DNA of 8,349 bases from a virus. Lineage: Monodnaviria; Loebvirae; Hofneiviricota; Faserviricetes; Tubulavirales; Inoviridae. Shown here piece by piece: positions 70-8,349 of the stretch; position 1 is the stretch's first letter; every line of letters begins with the position of its first letter. Below the pieces are notes generated by a model. It searched no databases. It saw only the letters and a list, made by a program, of their open reading frames with translations, and was not told where the DNA came from. The DNA is taken from the IMG/VR virus record IMGVR_UViG_2718218102_000001. One strand, given 5' to 3'. Made by a program: the position numbers and the translations under genes.

Positions 70-378
70 ATGGATTCTTATGGGATTTTATCTGCTCTGG
101 CAGAACGAACGATTACAGCGGAAGAAGCAAAAACAATGACACTTGCAGCCAGAAGTTCTTCGGCTCAGGTAAATGAAGCATCACTTGCTCTGTTACTGAT
201 TGATAATACTCTGGATGCGATCAAAGCAGCTGCCAGTGAAGGGAAAGGATACACTTTACTTCCTTCTTATGAGATTTCTTTAAAAGCCATTGATTTAGCA
301 GAAGAATTTTTAAGGAAACAATGCGGCTATGTTATTGATAACCAGAATGGCGTAAGGACGGTCTATTGGTTTATATGA
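70..378 (+). CDS. hypothetical protein (102 aa), left flank of the phage
   Basis: ATG at 70 follows in-frame stops at 55-57 and 64-66; ends TGA 376-378 followed directly by TAA. GGGG 9 nt upstream as a weak RBS. No family recognised. Confidence 0.45.
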   Translation: MDSYGILSALAERTITAEEAKTMTLAARSSSAQVNEASLALLLIDNTLDAIKAAASEGKGYTLLPSYEISLKAIDLAEEFLRKQCGYVIDNQNGVRTVYWFI

Positions 379-495: not shown

Positions 496-729
496 ATGCA
501 ATTTTTCACATCCAGCGATACTGTAATGTTATGTGCGAAGACCTGCGATCGCTGTGGTCGCCATGCGAAGACGGTGGTAGATGACATTGAGTTCAATGAG
601 TTTCTGTCTGTTAATCACTTAGCTGGATACGGTTCAATTTTTGGTGACAGTAATCGCTTAAAACTGGATTTATGCCAACATTGCCTGAAAGACGTCCTGG
701 GCCAGTGGATTACGGTCTGTGACCAATGA
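496..729 (+). CDS. hypothetical small protein with two CxxC pairs (77 aa), possible zinc-binding
   Basis: ATG at 496 preceded by GAGGAG with about 7 nt spacing. Protein contains CDRC and CQHC about 40 residues apart. Stop TGA 727-729. Confidence 0.5.
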   Translation: MQFFTSSDTVMLCAKTCDRCGRHAKTVVDDIEFNEFLSVNHLAGYGSIFGDSNRLKLDLCQHCLKDVLGQWITVCDQ

Positions 730-765: not shown

Positions 766-863
766 TTGGTGCGCATAATGTTCGACTCGTTATGTTGAAA
801 AGGCCGCTGCGATAATTGAATCCCGCAGCGGCCTCTTTAGCATAACGTCATTGTGCGAACCAA
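766..863. other. dif-like Xer recombination site pair in inverted orientation around a palindrome (candidate folded attP or prophage left junction)
   Basis: 768-778 GGTGCGCATAA equals the E. coli dif XerC arm, and with TG at 779-780 gives a 13-nt exact match to dif. 790-800 TTATGTTGAAA matches the dif XerD arm TTATGTTAAAT at 9/11. The spacer 779-789 is 11 nt, not 6. 801-811 and 824-834 form a perfect 11-bp inverted repeat with a 12-nt loop. On the minus strand 861-835 reads GGTTCGCACAA-TGACG-TTATGCTAAAG, a second dif-like site. In single-stranded form 768-778 pairs with 851-861 (9/11) and 790-800 with 835-845 (8/11), leaving an asymmetric 11 vs 5 nt internal loop. Confidence 0.6.
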
Positions 864-872
864 GTTTTGAAT

Positions 873-1205
873 CTAATAATCTGAATCCATAACTTCGACC
901 ATTTCATCAACATTTTGTTGGAATTGATAGTTTAAATGATTCCAGCCAAAATCACCGGGTTCAAATATATAAGTGTTCCCTTTCTTCTTAGATGTTAGTT
1001 CAAAATAATACTCTGTTGAGCTATTGGCGTTTAAAGTGATGTCATACCAACCAAGATATTTAACTTCCAGCACAGCCATTAGCTGGCTATTGACTTCATT
1101 AAAGACATGCGTCTTACTCATACCAGGGACGGGTTTTCCGTAGATGAAAACCCCATCTTGTGCAGTCCTAACCCTAACCCCATAAACCCTTGATTTTTTT
1201 GCCAT
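873..1205 (-). CDS. hypothetical soluble protein (110 aa), last gene of minus-strand accessory operon
   Basis: ATG is the reverse complement of 1203-1205, stop TAG is the reverse complement of 873-875. Starts 11 nt downstream of the preceding minus-strand gene. The + strand ORFs over this region look like antisense artefacts. Confidence 0.5.
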   Translation of the reverse strand: MAKKSRVYGVRVRTAQDGVFIYGKPVPGMSKTHVFNEVNSQLMAVLEVKYLGWYDITLNANSSTEYYFELTSKKKGNTYIFEPGDFGWNHLNYQFQQNVDEMVEVMDSDY

Positions 1206-1216
1206 TTCAACACTCT

Positions 1217-1570
1217 CTATTTTGATAAGTCATTTCTCATGGACTCGATTAGTTTATTAAAAGCATTGTTTCTTTCTTCTCTCGGACCATCGTTTGTATC
1301 AACTATTTTTTGTGCATAATGTGTGACTTGTTTTGAACCAAACAATGAGCAATGTGTTTGCCACAAGGCATATTCTTTAGATGCTTCGTCCGATGGTGAG
1401 ACCGCTGATTTATGGATTGATGACAATAATCCTAAGTACGCTTTTCTTTTTTCTTCATATAGGCGCTCTTCTTTTTTAGACTTTTTATTTAAAAGGTTTG
1501 TAATGGTTGAATTCAACATCGTCCCTATGCCTAATCCCCCAACAATTCCTAATATCATGTTGTAATCCAT
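1217..1570 (-). CDS. hypothetical membrane-anchored protein (about 117 aa)
   Basis: Start chosen at the ATG giving MDYNMILGIVGGLGIG..., 7 nt after the stop of the upstream gene. The track ORF extends to 1630 but would overlap that gene by 53 nt. Predicted N-terminal transmembrane helix followed by a charged, probably helical domain. No clear RBS, so the start is uncertain. Confidence 0.45.
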   Translation of the reverse strand: MDYNMILGIVGGLGIGTMLNSTITNLLNKKSKKEERLYEEKRKAYLGLLSSIHKSAVSPSDEASKEYALWQTHCSLFGSKQVTHYAQKIVDTNDGPREERNNAFNKLIESMRNDLSK

Positions 1571-1577
1571 AATATTA

Positions 1578-2000
1578 TTACCAGTAATATGAGTTTCTTC
1601 TGTGCCACCAATAAAGCAGGCCATATCCAACGATAAGAATCCCTAAAAACATAAGAGACATTCCCCAGCCAGTTCCATACCACGAAATCATATCATAGAA
1701 AACTAGCCCGCCCATTTCACGAACTCCGGCAGCTTCTTTAAGAATTGGTTTGAATACCGGAATCAGAAAGGCGATAGCCAGCGGTGTACCCCATCGAACA
1801 AGGCCGGTTTCCATTTTGATCCCGAAAAAGATCCCGCCACCGACAGCAAGAAGCCAAAAAATCAGGTTTGGCGCTGTTTCCAGAGCTGTTTGCCATTCAA
1901 CATCGAATGTCTTCATCAGCCAGAGAACGATGACTAAGGAGAAAATGGCTACACCACCAAAAACTAGTTCGACGCTACTTATTTCATTATTTCTGTTCAT
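1578..2000 (-). CDS. hypothetical small integral membrane protein (140 aa, about 4 predicted TM helices)
   Basis: ATG is the reverse complement of 1998-2000, stop TAA is the reverse complement of 1578-1580. Four hydrophobic segments and a Trp/Tyr-rich C-terminus. AAGGA lies immediately upstream with very short spacing. Confidence 0.55.
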   Translation of the reverse strand: MNRNNEISSVELVFGGVAIFSLVIVLWLMKTFDVEWQTALETAPNLIFWLLAVGGGIFFGIKMETGLVRWGTPLAIAFLIPVFKPILKEAAGVREMGGLVFYDMISWYGTGWGMSLMFLGILIVGYGLLYWWHRRNSYYW

Positions 2001-2041
2001 TCCTTCGATCCTTTTATTCGTTCAAAAATCGCGCAATTTAA

Positions 2042-2072
2042 AAACGTGCAGTGTAGGTAATACTGCACGTTT
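2042..2072 (-). terminator. candidate rho-independent terminator or attenuator on the minus strand, between the regulator gene and the accessory operon
   Basis: Perfect 11-bp inverted repeat (2042-2052 with 2062-2072), 9-nt loop. On the minus strand the stem is followed by UUUUUAAAUU. Lies 17 nt downstream of the stop of the 2089..2271 gene. Confidence 0.5.
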
Positions 2073-2088
2073 GTACCATTCGTGGTAC

Positions 2089-2271
2089 TTAATCCTTTTG
2101 TTTGGCAGACATGAGATCTTCTGCTGCATCTTTAGAGTAGTTATCAATCAGATAACCTAAAATCTCTGTCCATGTAATTGTTTTTCCTAGTTTTACACTG
2201 GCATTTATAGCCAGTCGTTCTAGTTTCATTTTTCTTTCTTCCGTCACGTTATAAGTCGTGCGCTTTGCCAT
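2089..2271 (-). CDS. putative ribbon-helix-helix (Arc/MetJ/CopG-like) DNA-binding regulator (60 aa), divergent from gII
   Basis: MAKRTTYNVTEERKMKLERLAINASVKLGKTITWTEILGYLIDNY fits a beta-strand, helix, G-x-T turn, helix pattern. Placement is divergent from the replication gene, as for repressors of other filamentous prophages (for example RstR of CTXphi, by analogy only). Confidence 0.5.
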   Translation of the reverse strand: MAKRTTYNVTEERKMKLERLAINASVKLGKTITWTEILGYLIDNYSKDAAEDLMSAKQKD

Positions 2272-2440
2272 TTTTTACGCTCGTTCAATGCAATATTTGA
2301 AGTGAGTATACATGCTCATGAACTCATATCATCCAAGCCTCTTGAACTCACTAGCTCACTGATGTAATGTTAAAACACTAATGAACTACTGAACTCATGT
2401 GTTAGTAAGTCGTCATTTTTGCAATTTTGAGGATTTATTC
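2272..2440. promoter_or_regulatory. divergent promoter/operator region with iterated motifs; possible (+) strand origin
   Basis: Four copies of TGAACT(C/A) at 2319, 2343, 2382 and 2390. CTCACT is repeated at 2347 and 2355. Candidate sigma70 promoter for gII: TTGAAC (2342-2347), 17 nt, TAATGT (2365-2370). GAGGA at 2429-2433 lies 7 nt before GTG 2441. Confidence 0.4.
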
Positions 2441-3493
2441 GTGATCGATTGGCTTACCGGGATTTTCCCTTGCACACACAAACCGCTTCCGGCGGGGAGT
2501 GTTGTCAGCGTTGATGCTGACGGTGCAATTGAGTGGGAAACCGTTAAGCGACTGACTGTTCGCGGCTCGCATGAAGCAACGATGAAAGTACGATCGATAG
2601 GATCTAATGGCGAAGGTAAAGCGACACATTTGTACATTGATGGTAATCCGTCCAAGTTTTTGCAGGGGCATTCTGTTGTTGGGTCGGATGATATACAAGG
2701 GCTCATGTTGACGGTCTATGCCAGGATTTTATCCTTATTGAATATTCCTCATGATTTAGCGTCTTATAAAGCTGTTATAGCAGGTCAGTATAAAATTTCA
2801 CGTGTTGACATTAATTACATGTATTCATTATCTACGCTAGAAAATGTCAGATCATGGCTTTATGCCGCCGAATTTAAAGCTAAAACACGCCATGGTCGCG
2901 CATGTGGGAAAGGCGGTACAGTTTATTTAGGTAAAAACTCCCGTCGATGGAGTCTGAAATTTTATTCAAAATATGATGAACACGTTTCGGGTAAAAAAGG
3001 GCACCAGATAGCCGAAGATTTTGTACGAGCCGGGTTACTGGACTGGACGAAAGATAAATTACGTATTGAATTAACATTAAGAACAACTGAGCTTATTGAT
3101 TTAAATTTAACGCTTGGCGCTAACTGGAATATGAAAACACCACGTCAATTATTCTCTGAATATGTAGGGAGAATAGAAATGAATCAGAATGCTATTTTAA
3201 GTGATGAAAAAATAACGAAACTGCCAAGAAAAATACAGTCAACTTATTTACTTTGGAAACAAGGGGCTAACATGAAAGAAATGTTACCTCATAACACTTT
3301 TTATCGCCATAGAAGAGAATTGCTTTCGTTCGGTATCGATATTAATTTCTATTGTGATTCACCAGACTCTAATAACGTTGTTCCGCTAATAAGAACGCTG
3401 GAAGCCAAGCCAGTGGAAATCCCCTTATGGATTTATGAGAAAGGTTTTATTTTCGATTACAACCGTATTTCGCACGCCAGTAGCTGGCATTAA
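2441..3493 (+). CDS. gII: replication initiation (rolling-circle nickase) protein, Ff gene II-like (about 350 aa)
   Basis: N-terminus (M)IDWLTG resembles Ff pII MIDMLVL; KFLQGHSVVG resembles KVLQGHNVFG; C-terminal NNVVPLIR resembles NNVVPLVR (M13 recalled from memory). GTG 2441 chosen over GTG 2399 because of the GAGGA RBS. Stop TAA 3491-3493. Confidence 0.75.
   Translation: MIDWLTGIFPCTHKPLPAGSVVSVDADGAIEWETVKRLTVRGSHEATMKVRSIGSNGEGKATHLYIDGNPSKFLQGHSVVGSDDIQGLMLTVYARILSLLNIPHDLASYKAVIAGQYKISRVDINYMYSLSTLENVRSWLYAAEFKAKTRHGRACGKGGTVYLGKNSRRWSLKFYSKYDEHVSGKKGHQIAEDFVRAGLLDWTKDKLRIELTLRTTELIDLNLTLGANWNMKTPRQLFSEYVGRIEMNQNAILSDEKITKLPRKIQSTYLLWKQGANMKEMLPHNTFYRHRRELLSFGIDINFYCDSPDSNNVVPLIRTLEAKPVEIPLWIYEKGFIFDYNRISHASSWH
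3179..3493 (+). CDS. gX: gene X-like product from an in-frame internal start within gII (104 aa)
   Basis: In-frame ATG at 3179 preceded by AGGGAG with 7 nt spacing. Context IEMNQNAILSDEK aligns with the Ff pX start region DSMNIYDDSAVLD. Confidence 0.5.
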   Translation: MNQNAILSDEKITKLPRKIQSTYLLWKQGANMKEMLPHNTFYRHRRELLSFGIDINFYCDSPDSNNVVPLIRTLEAKPVEIPLWIYEKGFIFDYNRISHASSWH

Positions 3494-3504: not shown

Positions 3505-3822
3505 ATGTCTAATTATGGTCTTTTCGTTAAGGGTAAAATGTTGGGAGCCCGCCAACGTAATAAAGTTAATGGTCAGGGCTATTATAATGAAATTGGTATT
3601 GGCCTTGAAATACCTGATGGTTTTGGTGGTACAAAGCAGGATCAAATTATTATTCGAGTTTCTCAGACTCTCGTTAACGCAGGTCTAATGAACCAGGCGA
3701 ATGCTTTCATTGGGAAATTAGTTCAAATTCCTGTCTATGTCCGTGCGTGGTCAATGGAGGGTAGGGAAGGTGTAACTTATAATGTTTCTTCCGATGGTGG
3801 CATCGCAGAGATCAAAGGTTAA
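3505..3822 (+). CDS. putative ssDNA-binding protein in the gene V position (105 aa)
   Basis: ATG 3505 with AGGAA RBS at 6 nt spacing, 11 nt after the gII stop and 2 nt before gVII. Assignment is by position only; I see no obvious similarity to Ff pV. Confidence 0.5.
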   Translation: MSNYGLFVKGKMLGARQRNKVNGQGYYNEIGIGLEIPDGFGGTKQDQIIIRVSQTLVNAGLMNQANAFIGKLVQIPVYVRAWSMEGREGVTYNVSSDGGIAEIKG

Positions 3823-4025: not shown

Positions 4026-4268
4026 ATGAAAATTCTGTCTACTGTTAAATATAAAGTTGCTCTGGCTTCAACTGCGCTTTTTGTTTCTGCAAGTTCTTTT
4101 GCGGCTGAAGGCGCTACAGGTGGTACTGATTATGCAGGTCAGGCAATGGATGCTTTGTTGACTCAGGCAAATGATCTCATTGGTAAAGTATGGCCTGTTG
4201 TTGTGGCTGTGGTTGGCGCTGGGCTTGCCATTCGTATTTTCAAAAAATTCTCTTCAAAAGCGGTTTGA
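4026..4268 (+). CDS. gVIII: major coat protein pVIII precursor (80 aa)
   Basis: GGAG RBS 8 nt upstream. Signal peptide ending SFA|AEG, acidic N-terminus, hydrophobic core, basic C-terminus [12 protein letters not shown] typical of Ff/IKe-class major coat proteins. Confidence 0.9.
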
Positions 4269-4314: not shown

Positions 4315-5640
4315 ATGAAAAGGAAAATATTAATTCTTTCCGCTGTCCTCATTTCTCCTTTTTCACATGCTGAGTCATGGGAAAGCATTACTAAATCCAC
4401 TTATCAAAGCTCTGCCTACGCTGAAAGTAAGCAAATAACCAATCAGGATGGCTCTAAGTCAACGGTTTACTATATTGATGCTGCTATGCAGGCCTCCGCT
4501 TGTCAGGGTGCTAAATCCAGTGCTCAGAGTGTATTTACTCAGGTTAAACCAACTTATGAGGGTATCTGGCCTGATTCTGAATTCCGTCTTGTTTTTACTG
4601 GTGATTGTACTTACAGCGATTCACCAGGGCAGAAGGATAAATATTGGTCTTTAACGGCTTATATTGTTGGTGATATTCAGCGTTCTGTTCCTGATGAAAA
4701 ACCTACTGACCCGACACCAGAAGAAATTTGTGAAGCGAAGCCGCCAGAAGAAGGTGTATTTAATAATGTTGATTCATATGATGGTGGTCGTTATATCTAC
4801 TATAACGGCTGTGAATATGAGGCTACTGGTGTCATTGTTTGTCAGGGTGATGGTACTGTTTGCGCTGCAACATGGAAGCCTACAGGTACTGTAGCTGACC
4901 CCTCTGATAAACCCTCAACCCCCCAAAATGGTGGTGGTGAGTCTGGCGGTGGTGAGTCTGGCGGTGGTGAGTCTGGCGGTGGTGAGTCCGGTGGCGGTAG
5001 TTCTGGCGGTGGTGAGTCCGGTGGCGGTAGTTCTGGCGGTGGTGAGTCCGGTGGCGGTAGTTCTGGCGGTGGTGAGTCCGGTGGCGGTAGTTCTGGCGGT
5101 GGCTTTAGTGGTTCCAGTCTTTCTAAAGGTGATATTCAGTCTGCTATCGAAGGTGCTTCACCCAAAATAGCCAGCGATATTCATGATAAATTAACGGAGA
5201 AAGACACTTCATCAGATGATAAAAAAAATGCCGATGAACAAACTAGGAATAATATAAATCGTCTTGACGATTCCATTAACAATCTTACGCGGGGGGCTGG
5301 CCGTTTTGCTGACCCTTCAGGTGGTGATTCTCGTTATGGAAAGGGCGACTCTGAATTAGATGGCGCTTCTACTTTGGCTGATTCTGAATTGGGAATTGAA
5401 AAGGATTCTCACGGTGCTTTATGGGAAGCATTTTTAAATAAAGGTGCTATGCTGCCTAATTTACCCAATGGTAACGGCTGCTCTGATTTTATTATTTTTC
5501 CCGGAGAGGTTTATCAGATTGATATTGGTTGCGATAAATTACTGACTATTAAAGATGTTCTTTCATGGGTTTTTTATTGCCTTACGTTCTGGTATGTCTT
5601 TACTTCTTTAACTTCATTGCTTCGCAAAGGGGGTGAGTGA
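4315..5640 (+). CDS. gIII: minor coat / adsorption protein pIII (about 441 aa)
   Basis: Start set at the in-frame ATG 4315 giving signal peptide [19 protein letters not shown]; the track ORF begins upstream inside gVIII. Cys-rich N-terminal domain, long Gly-rich linker, and a C-terminal anchor resembling the M13 pIII C-terminus (CDK...YVF...LRxK). Stop TGA 5638-5640 overlaps the gVI ATG. Confidence 0.9.
4936..5100 (+). repeat. in-frame tandem repeat, 11 copies of a 15-nt unit, encoding the Gly-rich pIII linker
   Basis: GGTGAGTCTGGCGGT x3 (4936-4980), then a 30-nt unit GGTGAGTCCGGTGGCGGTAGTTCTGGCGGT x4 (4981-5100). Encodes alternating GGGES and GGGSS. Confidence 0.9.
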
Positions 5641-5981
5641 TGCCTTTATTATTAGGTATTCCTGCATTGTTGCGTTTTCTTATTGGTCTTGTTCCTTTGT
5701 TTATTGGCTATGTGGCGAGTTTTTTAGCTCGACTTGCTACCAGAACAGGATTAATCGCCTTTGCATTGGTCGCATTAATTACAACAACTGTTACGCTTTT
5801 AATGCAGTACCTTGCTGAGGTCATGTATAACGGTTTACCTGCTGATTTCTCCCATTTAATGGCGTCTGTATTGCCTGACCATTTTCAGGCGTGTGTTAAC
5901 GTTATTATGGTTACTCGTATCAGTGTTTTTGTTTTCGATTTAAAACAAAAATTTCTTGATTATGCAAACAGGGTGATTTAA
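5640..5981 (+). CDS. gVI: minor coat protein pVI (113 aa)
   Basis: [17 protein letters not shown]... resembles M13 pVI MPVLLGIPLLLRFLG... (recalled). ATG 5640 overlaps the gIII stop (TGATG); the track used GTG 5637. Stop TAA 5979-5981 abuts the gI ATG. Confidence 0.85.
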   Translation: MPLLLGIPALLRFLIGLVPLFIGYVASFLARLATRTGLIAFALVALITTTVTLLMQYLAEVMYNGLPADFSHLMASVLPDHFQACVNVIMVTRISVFVFDLKQKFLDYANRVI

Positions 5982-7076
5982 ATGGCGGTTCATGTAGTAA
6001 CAGGCAAATTAGGCTCAGGCAAGACACTTGTTAGTGTTTCCAGAATACAGGAAAGACTTGCTAAGGGTTGTCCTGTTGCCACTAATCTTGATCTTAAATT
6101 GCATAATATGCCTATGGTTGGGCGTTATGCGAAAAAAACGCGCGTTATTCGCATTCCTGACAAGCCTTCATTAAATGATTTACTTGCTATTGGTATTGGG
6201 AATACATCTTACGATGAATCCCGTAATGGCCTCCTTGTACTTGATGAATGTGGTACTTGGTTTAATTCCCGCTCATGGGGTGATAAAGACAGACAACCTG
6301 TTATTGACTGGTTTTTACATGCCAGAAAATTAGGCTGGGATATTATATTTTTGATTCAGGATATTTCGATAATGGATAAGCAAGCTCGTCTGGCGCTTGC
6401 TGAGCATGTTGTTTATTGTCGCCGTTCAGATAAATTAAACATTCCTTTTGTTGGCTCCATTATGAATTTGGTTTCAGGGGCGCGATTTTCTTTACCAAAG
6501 GTACACTTTGGCATTGTCAAATATGGTGATAACGTTAATTCAATTACTGTTGATAAATGGATATACACCGGAAAATCATTATATTCCGCCTACAATACAA
6601 AACAGGTTTTTACTGATAACTATCCGCATGGTGCTTATTCGCTTTTGCCACCATTTATCACGCACGGTCAATTTTCTGTTCACAGAGGATTTAATTATTA
6701 TATGCGCCTCACGAAAATTTATTTTCGCAAATCGAACCGTCTTATATTAATGCTTTCTTTTTTGGCGCTGGGGCTTGCGCTTGGTTTCTGGCTCCAGTCT
6801 GGAAAGAATGTTGATGAAATCTCCGCTATTAAATCTGCTTATGCTGAACAGGCGAGGGCGGTAACGCCTGATTCGTCCAGTGACTTACCCCGACTTTCTA
6901 TTAATTCTTTTTCACAACTTGGCTTTGACGTTTCCGTTACGTTTGTTGATGCAAAAGGTACGAAATATCAGTATTTTGATTTGATTAAAGATGGTTATTC
7001 CGTTGATATTAAAGATGCCTGTCGTGTTGTTATTAGAAAAGGCCGTTATTTACAGACTGTTATCTGTCAGGAGTAA
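5982..7076 (+). CDS. gI: assembly ATPase pI (Zot-like), 364 aa
   Basis: Walker A motif GKLGSGKT at residues 8-15. Long colinear similarity to M13 pI (MAVYFVTGKLGSGKTLVSV..., LLVLDECGTWFN..., FLHARKLGWDIIFL...; recalled). C-terminal membrane segment. Confidence 0.9.
   Translation: MAVHVVTGKLGSGKTLVSVSRIQERLAKGCPVATNLDLKLHNMPMVGRYAKKTRVIRIPDKPSLNDLLAIGIGNTSYDESRNGLLVLDECGTWFNSRSWGDKDRQPVIDWFLHARKLGWDIIFLIQDISIMDKQARLALAEHVVYCRRSDKLNIPFVGSIMNLVSGARFSLPKVHFGIVKYGDNVNSITVDKWIYTGKSLYSAYNTKQVFTDNYPHGAYSLLPPFITHGQFSVHRGFNYYMRLTKIYFRKSNRLILMLSFLALGLALGFWLQSGKNVDEISAIKSAYAEQARAVTPDSSSDLPRLSINSFSQLGFDVSVTFVDAKGTKYQYFDLIKDGYSVDIKDACRVVIRKGRYLQTVICQE
6702..7076 (+). CDS. gXI: pXI-like product from an in-frame internal start within gI (124 aa)
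   Basis: In-frame ATG at 6702 (pI residue 241, the same position as the M13 gene XI start), just before the TM segment LILMLSFLALGLALGFW. AGAGGA lies 12 nt upstream. Confidence 0.5.
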   Translation: MRLTKIYFRKSNRLILMLSFLALGLALGFWLQSGKNVDEISAIKSAYAEQARAVTPDSSSDLPRLSINSFSQLGFDVSVTFVDAKGTKYQYFDLIKDGYSVDIKDACRVVIRKGRYLQTVICQE

Positions 7077-7083
7077 TATTATT

Positions 7084-8349
7084 ATGCGCTCTGTTATTGT
7101 TGCTTTTTTATTTGCCTGTTCATTCTGCGTTTCTGCTGAAACTGTTAATTTAAACAATTCATCTGTTCGCTCATTTGTTCAGTGGTATTCTTCAAAAACT
7201 GGCAAGCCTGTTATTGTTAATCCTGATATTAAAGGAAACGTAACCGTATTTAATGCTGATGTTAATCCAACAAATATTGATGATTTCTTTAAGTCTGTTC
7301 TGAATGCTAACGGTTTTGTCATGCTTTCTGGCAATCCTGCGGTAGTCTCTTTGCCGTCTAAATTACCTTCACAGATGGTTTCGGATTCCGATGATTCTGA
7401 TAACCAGTCTTATGATACTTTTCCTTCTGAGCCATCTTACCAGCCAGTACCTGTGGCGCTTACGGTCAGAAATTTTAAGCTGACAAAAGTTAGATCGTCC
7501 GATGTTCAGCAACTGATTAAAATTTATCTTGATTCTAATGGTGGTGGTAATGTCGTGGATTATCCAGGCAATAACTCGCTGATTGTTTCTGCGCCTGACG
7601 AGCTGCTGCCGGTTCTGTCCGATTTTATCAATTCTGTGGATGTTGCCCGCGATCAGGTTCTCATTCAGTCGCTGATGTTTGAAACCAGCTTGTCTGATGG
7701 CGTTGATTTATCGTTTGCGGCAGGTTCTGCATCCGGTCATAAGGTTGCGGGGGGCTTTAATACTTCTGCACTGGGTAGCGCTCTTTCTACGGCGGGCGGT
7801 TCTTTTGGTATTTTTGATGGTAACGTGTTGGCGCTGTCTCTGCGTGCTGTCCAGAGTAATTCACGCTCTAAGGTGATTTCAACGCCGCGTATTCTTACTC
7901 AGTCTGGTCAGACTGGTTACATTTCCGTAGGTAAGAATGTGCCGTTTATCACCGGAAAGGTAACGGGCGAATCTGCCGGGGTAAATAATCCGTTTCAGAC
8001 TATCGAGCGTCATGATGTTGGCGTTTCTCTCAAGGTAACGCCTGTTGTCATGGGTAACGGGCAACTAGTTCTGACTATCGACACTCGCGCTGATTCAATC
8101 AGCAATGATGATCAGGCATCCGATATTATTACTAATCAGCGCCAGATTCAGACGACAGTCCAGATTAAGGATGGTCAGACGTTGTTATTGGGGGGGCTTA
8201 TCGATTCATCGTTTAGCAATGCTGAGCGTTCAGTTCCAGTTATAAGTAAAATTCCTCTTATAGGCTGGATTTTCAGTAGCAAGGCAGACAGCAATGAACA
8301 GCGTATTATGTATATTTTGCTTACAGCACATATCATTCGTCCACTTTGA
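7084..8349 (+). CDS. gIV: outer-membrane secretin pIV (about 421 aa)
   Basis: Start set at ATG 7084 giving signal peptide MRSVIVAFLFACSFCVSA|ET; the track ORF starts upstream inside gI. Strong similarity to M13 pIV throughout (NVPFITGKVTGESAGVNNPFQTIER, DGQTLLLGGL, SKIPLIGWIFSS). Stop TGA 8347-8349 is the window end. Confidence 0.9.
   Translation: MRSVIVAFLFACSFCVSAETVNLNNSSVRSFVQWYSSKTGKPVIVNPDIKGNVTVFNADVNPTNIDDFFKSVLNANGFVMLSGNPAVVSLPSKLPSQMVSDSDDSDNQSYDTFPSEPSYQPVPVALTVRNFKLTKVRSSDVQQLIKIYLDSNGGGNVVDYPGNNSLIVSAPDELLPVLSDFINSVDVARDQVLIQSLMFETSLSDGVDLSFAAGSASGHKVAGGFNTSALGSALSTAGGSFGIFDGNVLALSLRAVQSNSRSKVISTPRILTQSGQTGYISVGKNVPFITGKVTGESAGVNNPFQTIERHDVGVSLKVTPVVMGNGQLVLTIDTRADSISNDDQASDIITNQRQIQTTVQIKDGQTLLLGGLIDSSFSNAERSVPVISKIPLIGWIFSSKADSNEQRIMYILLTAHIIRPL

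What the first reader, a model, noticed from the sequence alone, without database searches (positions are those of the whole stretch)
873..2000. Three-gene minus-strand accessory operon of small membrane proteins between the att site and the regulator
Three tightly spaced genes (7 and 11 nt gaps) run antisense to the packaged strand: a 140-aa protein with about 4 TM helices, a roughly 117-aa protein with an N-terminal TM anchor, and a 110-aa soluble protein. They can only be expressed from the double-stranded prophage or replicative form. They sit where CTXphi-like phages carry lysogeny functions and where prophages often carry cargo. I recognise no family for any of them. Superinfection exclusion, a membrane-acting toxin/immunity set, or an anti-phage defence module are all plausible, but this is inference only.
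Basis: inference. Interest (0 to 1): 0.7.

Follow-up and report, generated by a model that had tools for sequence, protein, structure and literature searches.

The report
Mosaic accessory genes in a filamentous prophage
The three small minus-strand genes are real and conserved, but they are a membrane protein that always accompanies the phage regulator plus a swappable two-gene cargo sitting in this phage family's variable slot; their functions remain unknown, with protection against other phages the likeliest guess.

Summary
Three co-oriented minus-strand ORFs lie at 1578-2000 (140 aa, 4 TM), 1217-1570 (117 aa, N-terminal TM) and 873-1205 (110 aa, soluble), with 7- and 11-nt gaps. All are under purifying selection (dN/dS 0.03-0.14).

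The window is a complete 8349-nt genome unit of a CUS-1/YpfPhi-type inovirus that integrates at dif.

The "three-gene operon" is a mosaic:
- TM140 (phrog_4174, function unknown) follows the regulator in 20 of 24 related viral loci (23 contigs) and precedes about ten alternative cargo sets.
- Homology to sister phages breaks at 863-872, 1573-1578 and 2040-2043, so the exchangeable cargo here is exactly P117+P110.
- In sister phages the same slot holds AbiJ-like, DpnII-MboI nuclease, Fic/Doc and other genes.
- P117 belongs to a widespread unnamed family (273 clusters at 50% identity) with no conserved neighbour.
- P110 is rare, is seen only in inoviruses, and is always the gene next to att.
- The trio order recurs in Rosenbergiella, and the P117+P110 pair recurs in Pectobacterium.

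No Pfam, NCBIfam, PADLOC or PDB relative was found for any of the three. P117 is a membrane-tethered four-helix bundle, and P110 has no recognisable structural neighbour.

Function is inferred only: lysogen-expressed protective or accessory genes. The module is a new occupant of a known kind of hotspot.

The parts
766..863 (+). attP region. The dif-like core lies at 768-800 (GGTGCGCATAA-TGTTCGACTCG-TTATGTTGAAA), inside a roughly 98-nt forked hairpin of the + strand that pairs two XerC-like and two XerD-like arms. Its central stem (801-838) also acts as a terminator-like hairpin for minus-strand transcripts.
   Evidence: DNA fold -30.2 kcal/mol, z = -7.8. RNA fold of the minus strand -29.1 kcal/mol followed by UUUU. 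Inverted repeat I1. Prophage junctions in E. coli 16843, with a perfect dif at the right end.
863..872 (.). Left homology breakpoint of the cargo slot; backbone identity to sister phages ends here.
   Evidence: blastn against L024, L025, L001 and L003.
873..1205 (-). P110: a 110-aa soluble, mildly acidic (pI 5.6) alpha/beta protein. It belongs to a rare family seen only in inoviruses and is always the att-proximal last gene of the leftward unit.
1217..1570 (-). P117: a 117-aa protein with an N-terminal TM helix (GGLGIG motif) continuous with a probably cytoplasmic four-helix bundle. It is a member of a widespread unnamed family.
1573..1578 (.). Inner homology breakpoint. Similarity to sister phages that carry TM140 resumes at the TM140 stop codon, so the exchangeable cargo is 873-1572.
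1578..2000 (-). TM140: a 140-aa inner-membrane protein with four TM segments. It is a semi-core partner of the regulator in this inovirus lineage (phrog_4174, function unknown).
2039..2075 (-). Hairpin followed by U5 on the minus strand, between the regulator and TM140. It is terminator/attenuator-like. It is also the outer homology breakpoint (2040-2043) in sister phages that lack TM140.
   Evidence: RNA fold -15.7 kcal/mol, z = -2.7. Inverted repeat I3. Breakpoints.
2089..2271 (-). 60-aa regulator-type gene (phrog_2503), at the position where the YpfPhi review places the RstR-like YPO2273. It is the first gene of the leftward unit.
2305..2332 (-). Sigma-70-like promoter candidate upstream of the regulator (ATGATA-16-TATACT). 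It is the only consensus match placed to drive the leftward unit.
   Evidence: This is a weak, consensus-only match; the number of matches in the region is not above the shuffle expectation.

Best explanation
The block is the lysogeny-side (leftward) accessory region of a CUS-1/YpfPhi-type, dif-integrating filamentous phage, and it is composite. (1) TM140 is a four-pass inner-membrane protein that belongs to the regulator module of this phage lineage. It sits directly downstream of whichever regulator the phage carries and is dispensable for episomal replication. Its most likely role is a lysogen-expressed membrane function, such as exclusion of superinfecting filamentous phage or another immunity-type activity. 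(2) P117+P110 is the current occupant of the family's exchangeable cargo slot (873-1572), bounded by the attP hairpin on one side and the TM140 stop codon on the other. Cassettes there appear to be swapped by recombination in the conserved flanks. P117 is a membrane-tethered, probably cytoplasmic four-helix-bundle protein that also moves on its own as a single-gene moron. P110 is a small soluble protein restricted to inoviruses. The three genes appear to be transcribed with the regulator by read-through of a weak terminator and to end at the strong hairpin in attP, so they would be expressed in the lysogen. By analogy with the Abi-, nuclease- and Fic-type genes that fill the same slot in sister phages, P117+P110 most likely protects the lysogen or prophage against other phages or mobile elements. 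Shown: gene reality, architecture, slot boundaries, separability and distribution. Inferred: co-transcription, topology and all functions.
For: The element is identified by the backbone gene set (Phage_CRI/G2P, G5P, Zot, secretin). It has 97-99% identical relatives in 44 complete E. coli genomes, next to hipBA/dif and often in tandem. The YpfPhi review already describes a variable attL-adjacent segment of unknown function. TM140 follows the regulator in 20 of 24 IMG/VR inovirus loci (L063 and L074 are the same contig, so 23 contigs). The regulators there are of at least three types, and a 37%-identical TM140 homolog shows the same layout in a divergent phage. TM140 is followed by about ten different cargo sets. 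A 7.9-kb circular Salmonella record of this phage lacks TM140 altogether. The breakpoints are sharp, at 863-872, 1573-1578 and 2040-2043. A TM140/DpnII-MboI chimera documents recombination in this region. Alternative cargo has defence-type domains: AbiJ_NTD4+DUF7014, DpnII-MboI (PADLOC Aga_Helical-REase, PDC-S35), Fic/Doc, and PADLOC candidate families PDC-S23/S32/S64. An accessory hotspot enriched in defence genes is published for Vibrio filamentous prophages. P117 has 273 clusters at 50% identity, nearly all 110-125 aa. It has no conserved neighbour in 29 loci. It sits as a moron inside a Mu-like prophage and beside Aeromonas inoviruses. Purifying selection acts on all three genes. Hairpins bracket the block.
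Against: There is no experimental or expression evidence. None of the three proteins matches any PADLOC, Pfam or NCBIfam model, so the defence reading rests only on location. Outside Enterobacterales and Aeromonas, many P117 relatives are flanked by housekeeping genes and not by recognisable mobile elements. The trio order is conserved in Rosenbergiella on an unrelated backbone, and the P117+P110 pair persists in three lineages despite allele reshuffling. That could mean functional coupling that the 'independent cassettes' view underrates. No convincing promoter was found for the block, and the promoter scan was not above the shuffle expectation.
Confidence: 0.55

Rival explanations
1. The three genes form one functional system. 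For example, TM140 is a membrane effector (pore or depolariser) controlled by P117 and P110 as sensor or regulator, giving an abortive-infection or toxin/immunity set.
For: The spacing is tight and the genes are co-oriented. The same TM140-P117-P110 order occurs in Rosenbergiella although the replication protein is essentially unrelated. The position after a repressor resembles lambda cI-rexA-rexB.
Against: Each gene occurs without the others in several lineages. TM140 is paired with about ten unrelated cargo sets. P117 has no conserved neighbour in 29 loci. TM140 shows no homology to RexB. There are no PADLOC hits.
Confidence: 0.15
2. The genes are lysogenic-conversion factors that benefit the bacterial host (colonisation, virulence, envelope properties) and have nothing to do with phage-phage conflict.
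For: YpfPhi and CUS-1 give modest in vivo fitness advantages, and the terminal ORFs of unknown function were flagged as candidates. Two of the three proteins are membrane proteins. Relatives are common in extraintestinal pathogenic E. coli such as UTI89 and UM146.
Against: The same slot in sister phages is filled mostly with nuclease, Abi and Fic-type genes. P117 relatives occur in environmental Alphaproteobacteria, Cloacimonadota and Bdellovibrionales, which have no link to animal hosts.
Confidence: 0.15
3. P110 is an integration/excision helper for Xer recombination at the adjacent attP (a functional analogue of XafT), and TM140 and P117 are unrelated passengers.
For: P110-family genes are found only in inoviruses and are always the terminal gene, starting about 10 nt from the attP hairpin, on at least five different backbones. 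In CTX-I/TLC-type elements the att-proximal terminal gene of the leftward operon is XafT.
Against: Most family members integrate at dif, often in tandem, without any P110. P110 has no HTH or DUF3653 match, is acidic and has no DNA-binding-like structural neighbour.
Confidence: 0.07
4. TM140 is a core phage function (membrane assembly or replication anchoring) and not an accessory or immunity gene.
For: It is conserved next to the regulator across divergent inoviruses, including a 37%-identical homolog. It is under purifying selection.
Against: It is absent from a circular 7.9-kb Salmonella record of this phage and from one of two tandem copies in E. coli 16843. It is transcribed with the regulator on the strand opposite the morphogenesis genes.
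Confidence: 0.08

Closest known systems
CUS-1 (E. coli O18:K1:H7) and YpfPhi (Yersinia pestis) filamentous prophages, specifically their attL-adjacent ORFs (orf1/orf1a; YPO2271/YPO2272)
   Same: Same backbone family. Integration is at dif next to hipBA, often in tandem. A leftward regulator is followed by ORFs of unknown function that differ between phages. UTI89 (CUS-1 type) carries a TM140 homolog followed by a 369-aa gene.
   Different: The cargo here (P117+P110) differs from that of both named phages. P117 is absent from all 5,426 complete E. coli genomes searched. I could not read the original CUS-1 paper, so the mapping of orf1/orf1a onto TM140 is inferred from UTI89.
Accessory-gene hotspot / hypervariable region of Vibrio filamentous (and tailless) prophages (ISME J 2024, PMC11630473; Commun Biol 2025, PMC12715192)
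   Same: A defined variable locus lies between conserved flanks near the lysogeny module and attP. Cargo is frequently defence-type, and exchange by recombination in identical flanks has been proposed.
   Different: This is a different host group and phage lineage. Here the slot is nested: an inner cargo slot plus an optional TM140. TM140 is a constant membrane partner of the regulator, which I did not see described in the passages of those papers that I read.
Lambda immunity operon cI-rexA-rexB (RexB: 144 aa, four TM segments)
   Same: A repressor gene is followed, in the same lysogen-expressed transcription unit, by a protein of about 140 aa with four TM segments.
   Different: There is no sequence or profile similarity (hhalign probability 0.3%; no Pfam or PADLOC hit). 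There is no RexA-like partner. The resemblance is positional only.
Single-pass inner-membrane superinfection-exclusion morons of temperate phages (e.g. HK97 gp15; from my own knowledge)
   Same: P117 is a small protein with an N-terminal anchor and a probably cytoplasmic domain. It is inserted as a lone, oppositely oriented gene in the late region of a Mu-like prophage and in inoviruses.
   Different: Homology was not tested, and no function is known for P117. Many P117 relatives are not in recognisable prophages.

Membership tests
CUS-1/YpfPhi-type dif-integrating inovirus (the element as a whole) | Inovirus core genes: pII-type Rep, ssDNA-binding protein, major coat protein, Zot-like pI, secretin | tested here: met
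   Phage_CRI+G2P_X_C, Putative_G5P, Zot and Secretin hits. 97-99% identity to annotated E. coli prophages.
CUS-1/YpfPhi-type dif-integrating inovirus (the element as a whole) | dif-like attP and integration at chromosomal dif, with dif regenerated at one end | tested here: met
   The site is at 768-800. In L001 a perfect dif lies at the right end and phage-type sites at the left and inter-copy junctions. The attP hairpin folds well.
Accessory-gene hotspot of filamentous prophages | Variable gene content between conserved flanks in closely related phages | tested here: met
   About ten cargo sets occur at the same place, with sharp breakpoints.
Accessory-gene hotspot of filamentous prophages | Cargo recognisable as defence genes | tested here: inconclusive
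   Sister cargo has AbiJ-like, DpnII-MboI, Fic/Doc and PADLOC candidate families. P117 and P110 themselves have no significant PADLOC hit.
PHROG 4174 (TM140) | Full-length profile match | tested here: met
   E = 1.3e-72 over 1-140 of 140. The family has no annotated function.
Lambda RexB | Sequence or profile homology to RexB | tested here: not met
   hhalign probability 0.3%. No Pfam or PADLOC match at E<=1.
Lambda RexB | RexA-like partner gene in the same operon | tested here: not met
   The neighbours are P117/P110 or other cargo, and none matched a PADLOC model named Rex. I did not confirm that PADLOC contains a Rex model.
Type II toxin-antitoxin pair (P117+P110) | The two genes co-occur strictly | tested here: not met
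   P117 lacks a P110 neighbour in 27 of the 29 clustered family loci. P110 occurs without P117 in L016, L018, L063 and three E. coli genomes.
Type II toxin-antitoxin pair (P117+P110) | Match to a known toxin or antitoxin family | tested here: not met
   No Pfam, NCBIfam or PADLOC hit. No PDB sequence or fold relative for P110.
XafT (DUF3653) Xer activation factor (P110) | DUF3653 HTH domain | tested here: not met
   No Pfam hit except DUF2846 at E = 0.078, below the cut-off.
XafT (DUF3653) Xer activation factor (P110) | Terminal gene of the leftward operon adjacent to attP | tested here: met
XafT (DUF3653) Xer activation factor (P110) | Stimulates Xer catalysis | not testable with these tools
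   This needs a recombination assay.
Superinfection-exclusion membrane morons (HK97 gp15-like) | Blocks DNA entry of incoming phage | not testable with these tools
   Only the architecture (N-terminal anchor, moron context) could be examined.

The most novel reading that the evidence does not exclude
P117, alone or with P110, is a new, widespread, single-gene-sized anti-phage or exclusion determinant: a membrane-tethered four-helix bundle spread by temperate phages across several bacterial phyla. In addition, or alternatively, TM140 is a constant membrane effector of the CUS-1/YpfPhi regulator module that works with interchangeable downstream cargo, a RexB-like logic reached without homology.
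Probability: 0.2. Interest if true: 0.65.

Novelty: new member of a known kind. Interest (0 to 1): 0.4.

Why it matters
CUS-1/YpfPhi-type prophages sit at dif in many extraintestinal pathogenic E. coli and in pandemic Y. pestis, and they give small fitness advantages whose genetic basis is unknown. This analysis shows that their attL-adjacent region is a nested exchange slot with defined boundaries. It identifies a constant membrane partner of the regulator (TM140). It also singles out P117 as a compact, highly conserved family that has no entry in any library searched here and moves between very different mobile elements. That gives three small, easily cloned candidates for exclusion or defence assays, and a precise recombination framework for surveying inovirus cargo in Enterobacterales.

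Tried and rejected
1. Named-family assignment failed. Pfam, NCBIfam and PADLOC gave nothing significant for the three proteins. PHROGs matched only TM140, to a family of unknown function.
2. Sequence search of the PDB with family profiles found nothing, or only noise: the best hit for P110 was E = 0.02, to a cyclodipeptide synthase.
4. Deposited phage genomes hold no DNA match to the module and no tblastn match to P117.
5. The idea that the TM140-P110 linker in P117-less phages is a remnant of the P117 3' end was rejected. The local alignment score was 15 against a shuffle mean of 16.6.
6. The direct repeat of the att core inside P117 (1311-1335, 80% identical) is treated as chance, because it is not conserved in the Pectobacterium homolog.
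7. RexB homology was rejected.
8. P117 and P110 are not related to each other.
9. Rfam gave only sub-threshold matches on the attP hairpin.
10. The promoter scan found no more matches than expected by chance, so no internal promoter is claimed.
11. A single Bro-N::P117 fusion (P0218) was noted but not relied on, since it may be a gene-calling artefact.
12. The original CUS-1 paper is not held in the library.
Full report
**What the window is**

The + strand encodes an inovirus gene set:
- pII-type replication protein, 2399-3493 (Phage_CRI + G2P_X_C)
- G5P-type ssDNA-binding protein, 3505-3822
- major coat protein, 4026-4268
- a glycine-rich adsorption protein ending at 5640
- pVI-like protein, 5637-5981
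- Zot-like pI, 5982-7076
- a secretin whose stop codon is the last triplet of the window (8347-8349)

The first + strand gene (70-378) is the one that follows the secretin in relatives. The 8349 nt are therefore one complete genome unit.

Forty-four complete E. coli genomes hold prophages that cover at least 80% of the window, at about 97-99% identity in the listed hits. In the examples examined the prophage lies next to hipBA, and in several it is in tandem. Exact copies of the whole module occur in an E. coli assembly and in metagenome contigs.

The literature identifies this lineage as the CUS-1/YpfPhi family. These phages integrate at dif through XerCD. Their attL-adjacent ORFs differ between the two named phages and have no known function (PMC4266046).

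**Checking the observation**

The three minus-strand ORFs are at the stated coordinates, with 7- and 11-nt gaps.
- TM140 has four hydrophobic segments.
- P117 has one weak N-terminal hydrophobic segment containing an invariant GGxGxG motif.
- P110 has none.

The 117-aa start is supported by family lengths and the conserved N-terminus. Gene callers elsewhere chose a 135-aa start that overlaps TM140.

All three genes are under purifying selection. dN/dS is 0.11-0.14 for TM140, 0.03 for P117 and 0.04 for P110. In the more distant pairs synonymous sites are saturated while non-synonymous divergence stays low.

**Anatomy of the leftward unit**

In transcription order on the minus strand:
- A promoter-like site lies at 2332-2305. 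It is a weak, consensus-only match.
- The 60-aa regulator lies at 2271-2089 (phrog_2503).
- A hairpin at 2075-2039 is followed by U5 (-15.7 kcal/mol).
- TM140, P117 and P110 follow.
- A strong hairpin at 838-801 is followed by U4 (-29.1 kcal/mol).

I found no convincing promoter between the first hairpin and TM140. The simplest reading is attenuated read-through from the regulator's promoter, which would mean expression in the lysogen. This is inference.

The strong hairpin is the core of a larger structure. The + strand from 766 to 863 folds as DNA into a forked hairpin (-30.2 kcal/mol, z = -7.8). It pairs two XerC-like arms and two XerD-like arms around a bulge. That is the CTXphi-style folded attP the review proposed for YpfPhi.

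In E. coli 16843 the right prophage end carries a perfect dif. The left and inter-copy junctions carry the phage-type site seen at window 768-800.

**The block is a mosaic**

DNA comparison with sister phages gives sharp breakpoints.
- The left flank (97-99% identity) ends at 863-872.
- Similarity resumes at 1573-1578 (the TM140 stop) in phages that have TM140. There the TM140 gene is only 83-92% identical, against 96-99% for the backbone in the closest relatives.
- Similarity resumes at 2040-2043 (the first hairpin) in phages that lack TM140.

The exchangeable cargo in this window is therefore exactly 873-1572, that is, P117+P110.

I took a census of 24 IMG/VR inovirus loci from 23 contigs; L063 and L074 are the same contig.
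- TM140 lies directly after the regulator in 20 loci.
- In three others my ORF picker chose the antisense shadow ORF.
- The remaining locus, L073, is a divergent phage; its layout was read separately (below).
- The regulator is the 60-aa type, a 148-aa HTH type, or a more distant type.
- TM140 is followed by about ten alternative cargo sets:
  - DpnII-MboI-type nuclease + DUF6953
  - an STM4504-family protein
  - an ECs_2282 zinc-ribbon protein + a 159-aa protein
  - a 159-like + 123-aa pair
  - a 91-like + 230-like pair
  - a 101-aa protein + a 230-like protein
  - a 369-aa protein (CUS-1/UTI89)
  - a 368-aa protein
  - P110 alone
  - P117+P110

A 37%-identical TM140 homolog in a divergent inovirus keeps the same layout: small regulator, TM140-like protein, another gene, then convergence on the secretin.

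Some family members lack TM140. One is a circular 7.9-kb Salmonella record with only a Fic/Doc gene in the slot. Another is one of the two tandem copies in E. coli 16843. A database protein that fuses the first 62 residues of TM140 to a DpnII-MboI C-terminus documents recombination inside the region.

**P117**

Relatives at 50-88% identity occur in Rosenbergiella, Edwardsiella, Aeromonas, Vibrio, Rhizobium/Agrobacterium, Devosia, Legionella, Bdellovibrionales and Cloacimonadota. They also occur on Piscirickettsia, Ralstonia, Yersinia ruckeri and Citrobacter plasmids.

An exhaustive profile search found 273 clusters at 50% identity, 155 of them with E<=1e-10. Nearly all are 110-125 aa. The few longer members show no recurrent fused domain; there is one Bro-N fusion.

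Contexts vary.
- In Edwardsiella the gene sits alone, in opposite orientation, between the protease/scaffold and tail genes of a Mu-like prophage.
- In Aeromonas it sits next to an integrase, with or without an adjacent CTX-like inovirus.
- Across 29 loci no neighbour is conserved beyond species groups.
- A bulk Pfam scan of 119 neighbours gave 108 different families, many of them housekeeping.

P117 is absent from all 5,426 complete E. coli genomes at blastn sensitivity and from 50,697 deposited phage records.

**P110**

The large database holds only five clusters. There is also a 57%-identical copy in Rosenbergiella and roughly 85%-identical copies in three complete E. coli genomes.

Every occurrence is in an inovirus, and P110 is always the last gene before the terminator/attP:
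- after P117 (this window, Pectobacterium, Rosenbergiella)
- after TM140 directly (L063, APEC E19057)
- after a DpnII-MboI nuclease (Providencia)
- after a 46+91+230-aa set (metagenomic inovirus)

**Are the three genes one system?**

The evidence points both ways.

*Against an obligate unit:* every gene occurs without the others (see above).

*For some linkage:*
- The trio order recurs in Rosenbergiella although the replication proteins are essentially unrelated (E = 0.002).
- The P117+P110 pair persists in three lineages even though the alleles are reshuffled. P117/P110 identity is 88%/57% against Rosenbergiella but 76%/87% against Pectobacterium.

I therefore describe TM140 as a semi-core partner of the regulator, and P117+P110 as a two-gene cargo whose members can also stand alone. 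I keep the single-system reading as a rival at 0.15.

**Function**

Nothing here is shown. The best-supported inference comes from location. The same slot in sister phages carries:
- AbiJ_NTD4+DUF7014
- DpnII-MboI nucleases, which match PADLOC Aga_Helical-REase and PDC-S35
- Fic/Doc
- a Lar-like zinc ribbon
- other PADLOC candidate families

A defence-enriched accessory hotspot is published for Vibrio filamentous prophages.

YpfPhi lysogens are partly protected against superinfection by the same phage, and no gene has been assigned to this. I could not confirm whether YpfPhi itself carries TM140. A lysogen-expressed inner-membrane protein coupled to the regulator would be a natural candidate for that role.

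The lambda cI-rexA-rexB operon is a positional analogy only. TM140 shows no homology to RexB.

Rivals kept:
- host-directed lysogenic conversion (0.15)
- P110 as a Xer helper, a XafT analogue by position but with no DUF3653 and absent from most integrating relatives (0.07)
- TM140 as a core phage function (0.08)

**Novelty and verdict**

Already known:
- the phage family
- the variability of its attL-adjacent segment
- the general idea of accessory hotspots in filamentous prophages

What this analysis adds:
- the nested slot and its exact boundaries
- the constant regulator-TM140 coupling
- the P117 family, widespread and conserved but with no entry in any library searched here
- the rare, att-proximal P110, which has no recognisable structural neighbour

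I rate the finding as a new member of a known kind, with interest 0.4.

Noticed in passing
window 766-863: The + strand folds as ssDNA into a roughly 98-nt forked hairpin (-30.2 kcal/mol, z = -7.8). It pairs a XerC-like arm (768-780) with an inverted copy (about 850-862), and a XerD-like arm with its inverse, around a bulge. This is a CTXphi-style folded attP. Its inner stem doubles as the terminator of the leftward unit.
   Followed up: partly
window 772-863; L075 2501-2572; L076 2501-2592: About 70-90 bp of the attP region matches more than 400 enterobacterial plasmids, mostly conjugative IncF-type, at 90-96% identity. In pMS20659 the match abuts a truncated STM4504/AbiJ-like gene, which is one of the alternative cargo genes. 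In a Klebsiella plasmid it abuts an HTH 'DNA recombination' gene. These look like relics of inovirus/IMEX att-proximal modules on plasmids.
   Followed up: partly
L002 (Klebsiella pneumoniae plasmid NZ_CP132684.1): A CUS-1-type inovirus is present in tandem copies inside a 248-kb IncFIB/IncHI1B plasmid rather than at chromosomal dif. It carries TM140 + DpnII-MboI nuclease + DUF6953 cargo.
   Followed up: no
protein P0034: A database protein is a chimera of the first 62 residues of TM140 and the C-terminal half of a DpnII-MboI-type protein. It marks a recombination or deletion event inside the cargo region.
   Followed up: no
L001 (E. coli 16843) 1924-3343 and 10241-11717: Two tandem prophage copies with near-identical backbones carry different cargo: a 46+91+230-aa set without TM140, versus TM140+ECs_2282+159 aa. 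One lysogen therefore holds two cargo alleles side by side.
   Followed up: partly
window 70-378 and 496-729 (+ strand): Two small conserved ORFs lie between the secretin and attP (phrog_4115 and phrog_5435, both of unknown function). The second has a CxxC...CxxC zinc-ribbon-like pattern, and some E. coli relatives list a 'mobilome CxxCx(11)CxxC protein' (not shown to be this ORF). They correspond to the attR-adjacent ORFs of unknown function in YpfPhi.
   Followed up: no
window 770-794 and 1311-1335: A 25-nt direct repeat of the att core (80% identical) lies inside the P117 coding sequence. It is not conserved in the Pectobacterium homolog and is probably chance.
   Followed up: partly
L012, L015 versus L013, L014 (Aeromonas): The P117 homolog and an adjacent tyrosine integrase occupy the same chromosomal site with or without a neighbouring CTX-like inovirus. 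The inoviruses have two different Rep types (Rep_trans and Phage_GPA). This suggests a small integrase island that recruits inoviruses, or is left behind by them.
   Followed up: no
protein P0218: One distant P117 relative is fused to an N-terminal Bro-N domain, a phage-associated DNA-binding domain. It is a single case and could be a gene-calling artefact.
   Followed up: no
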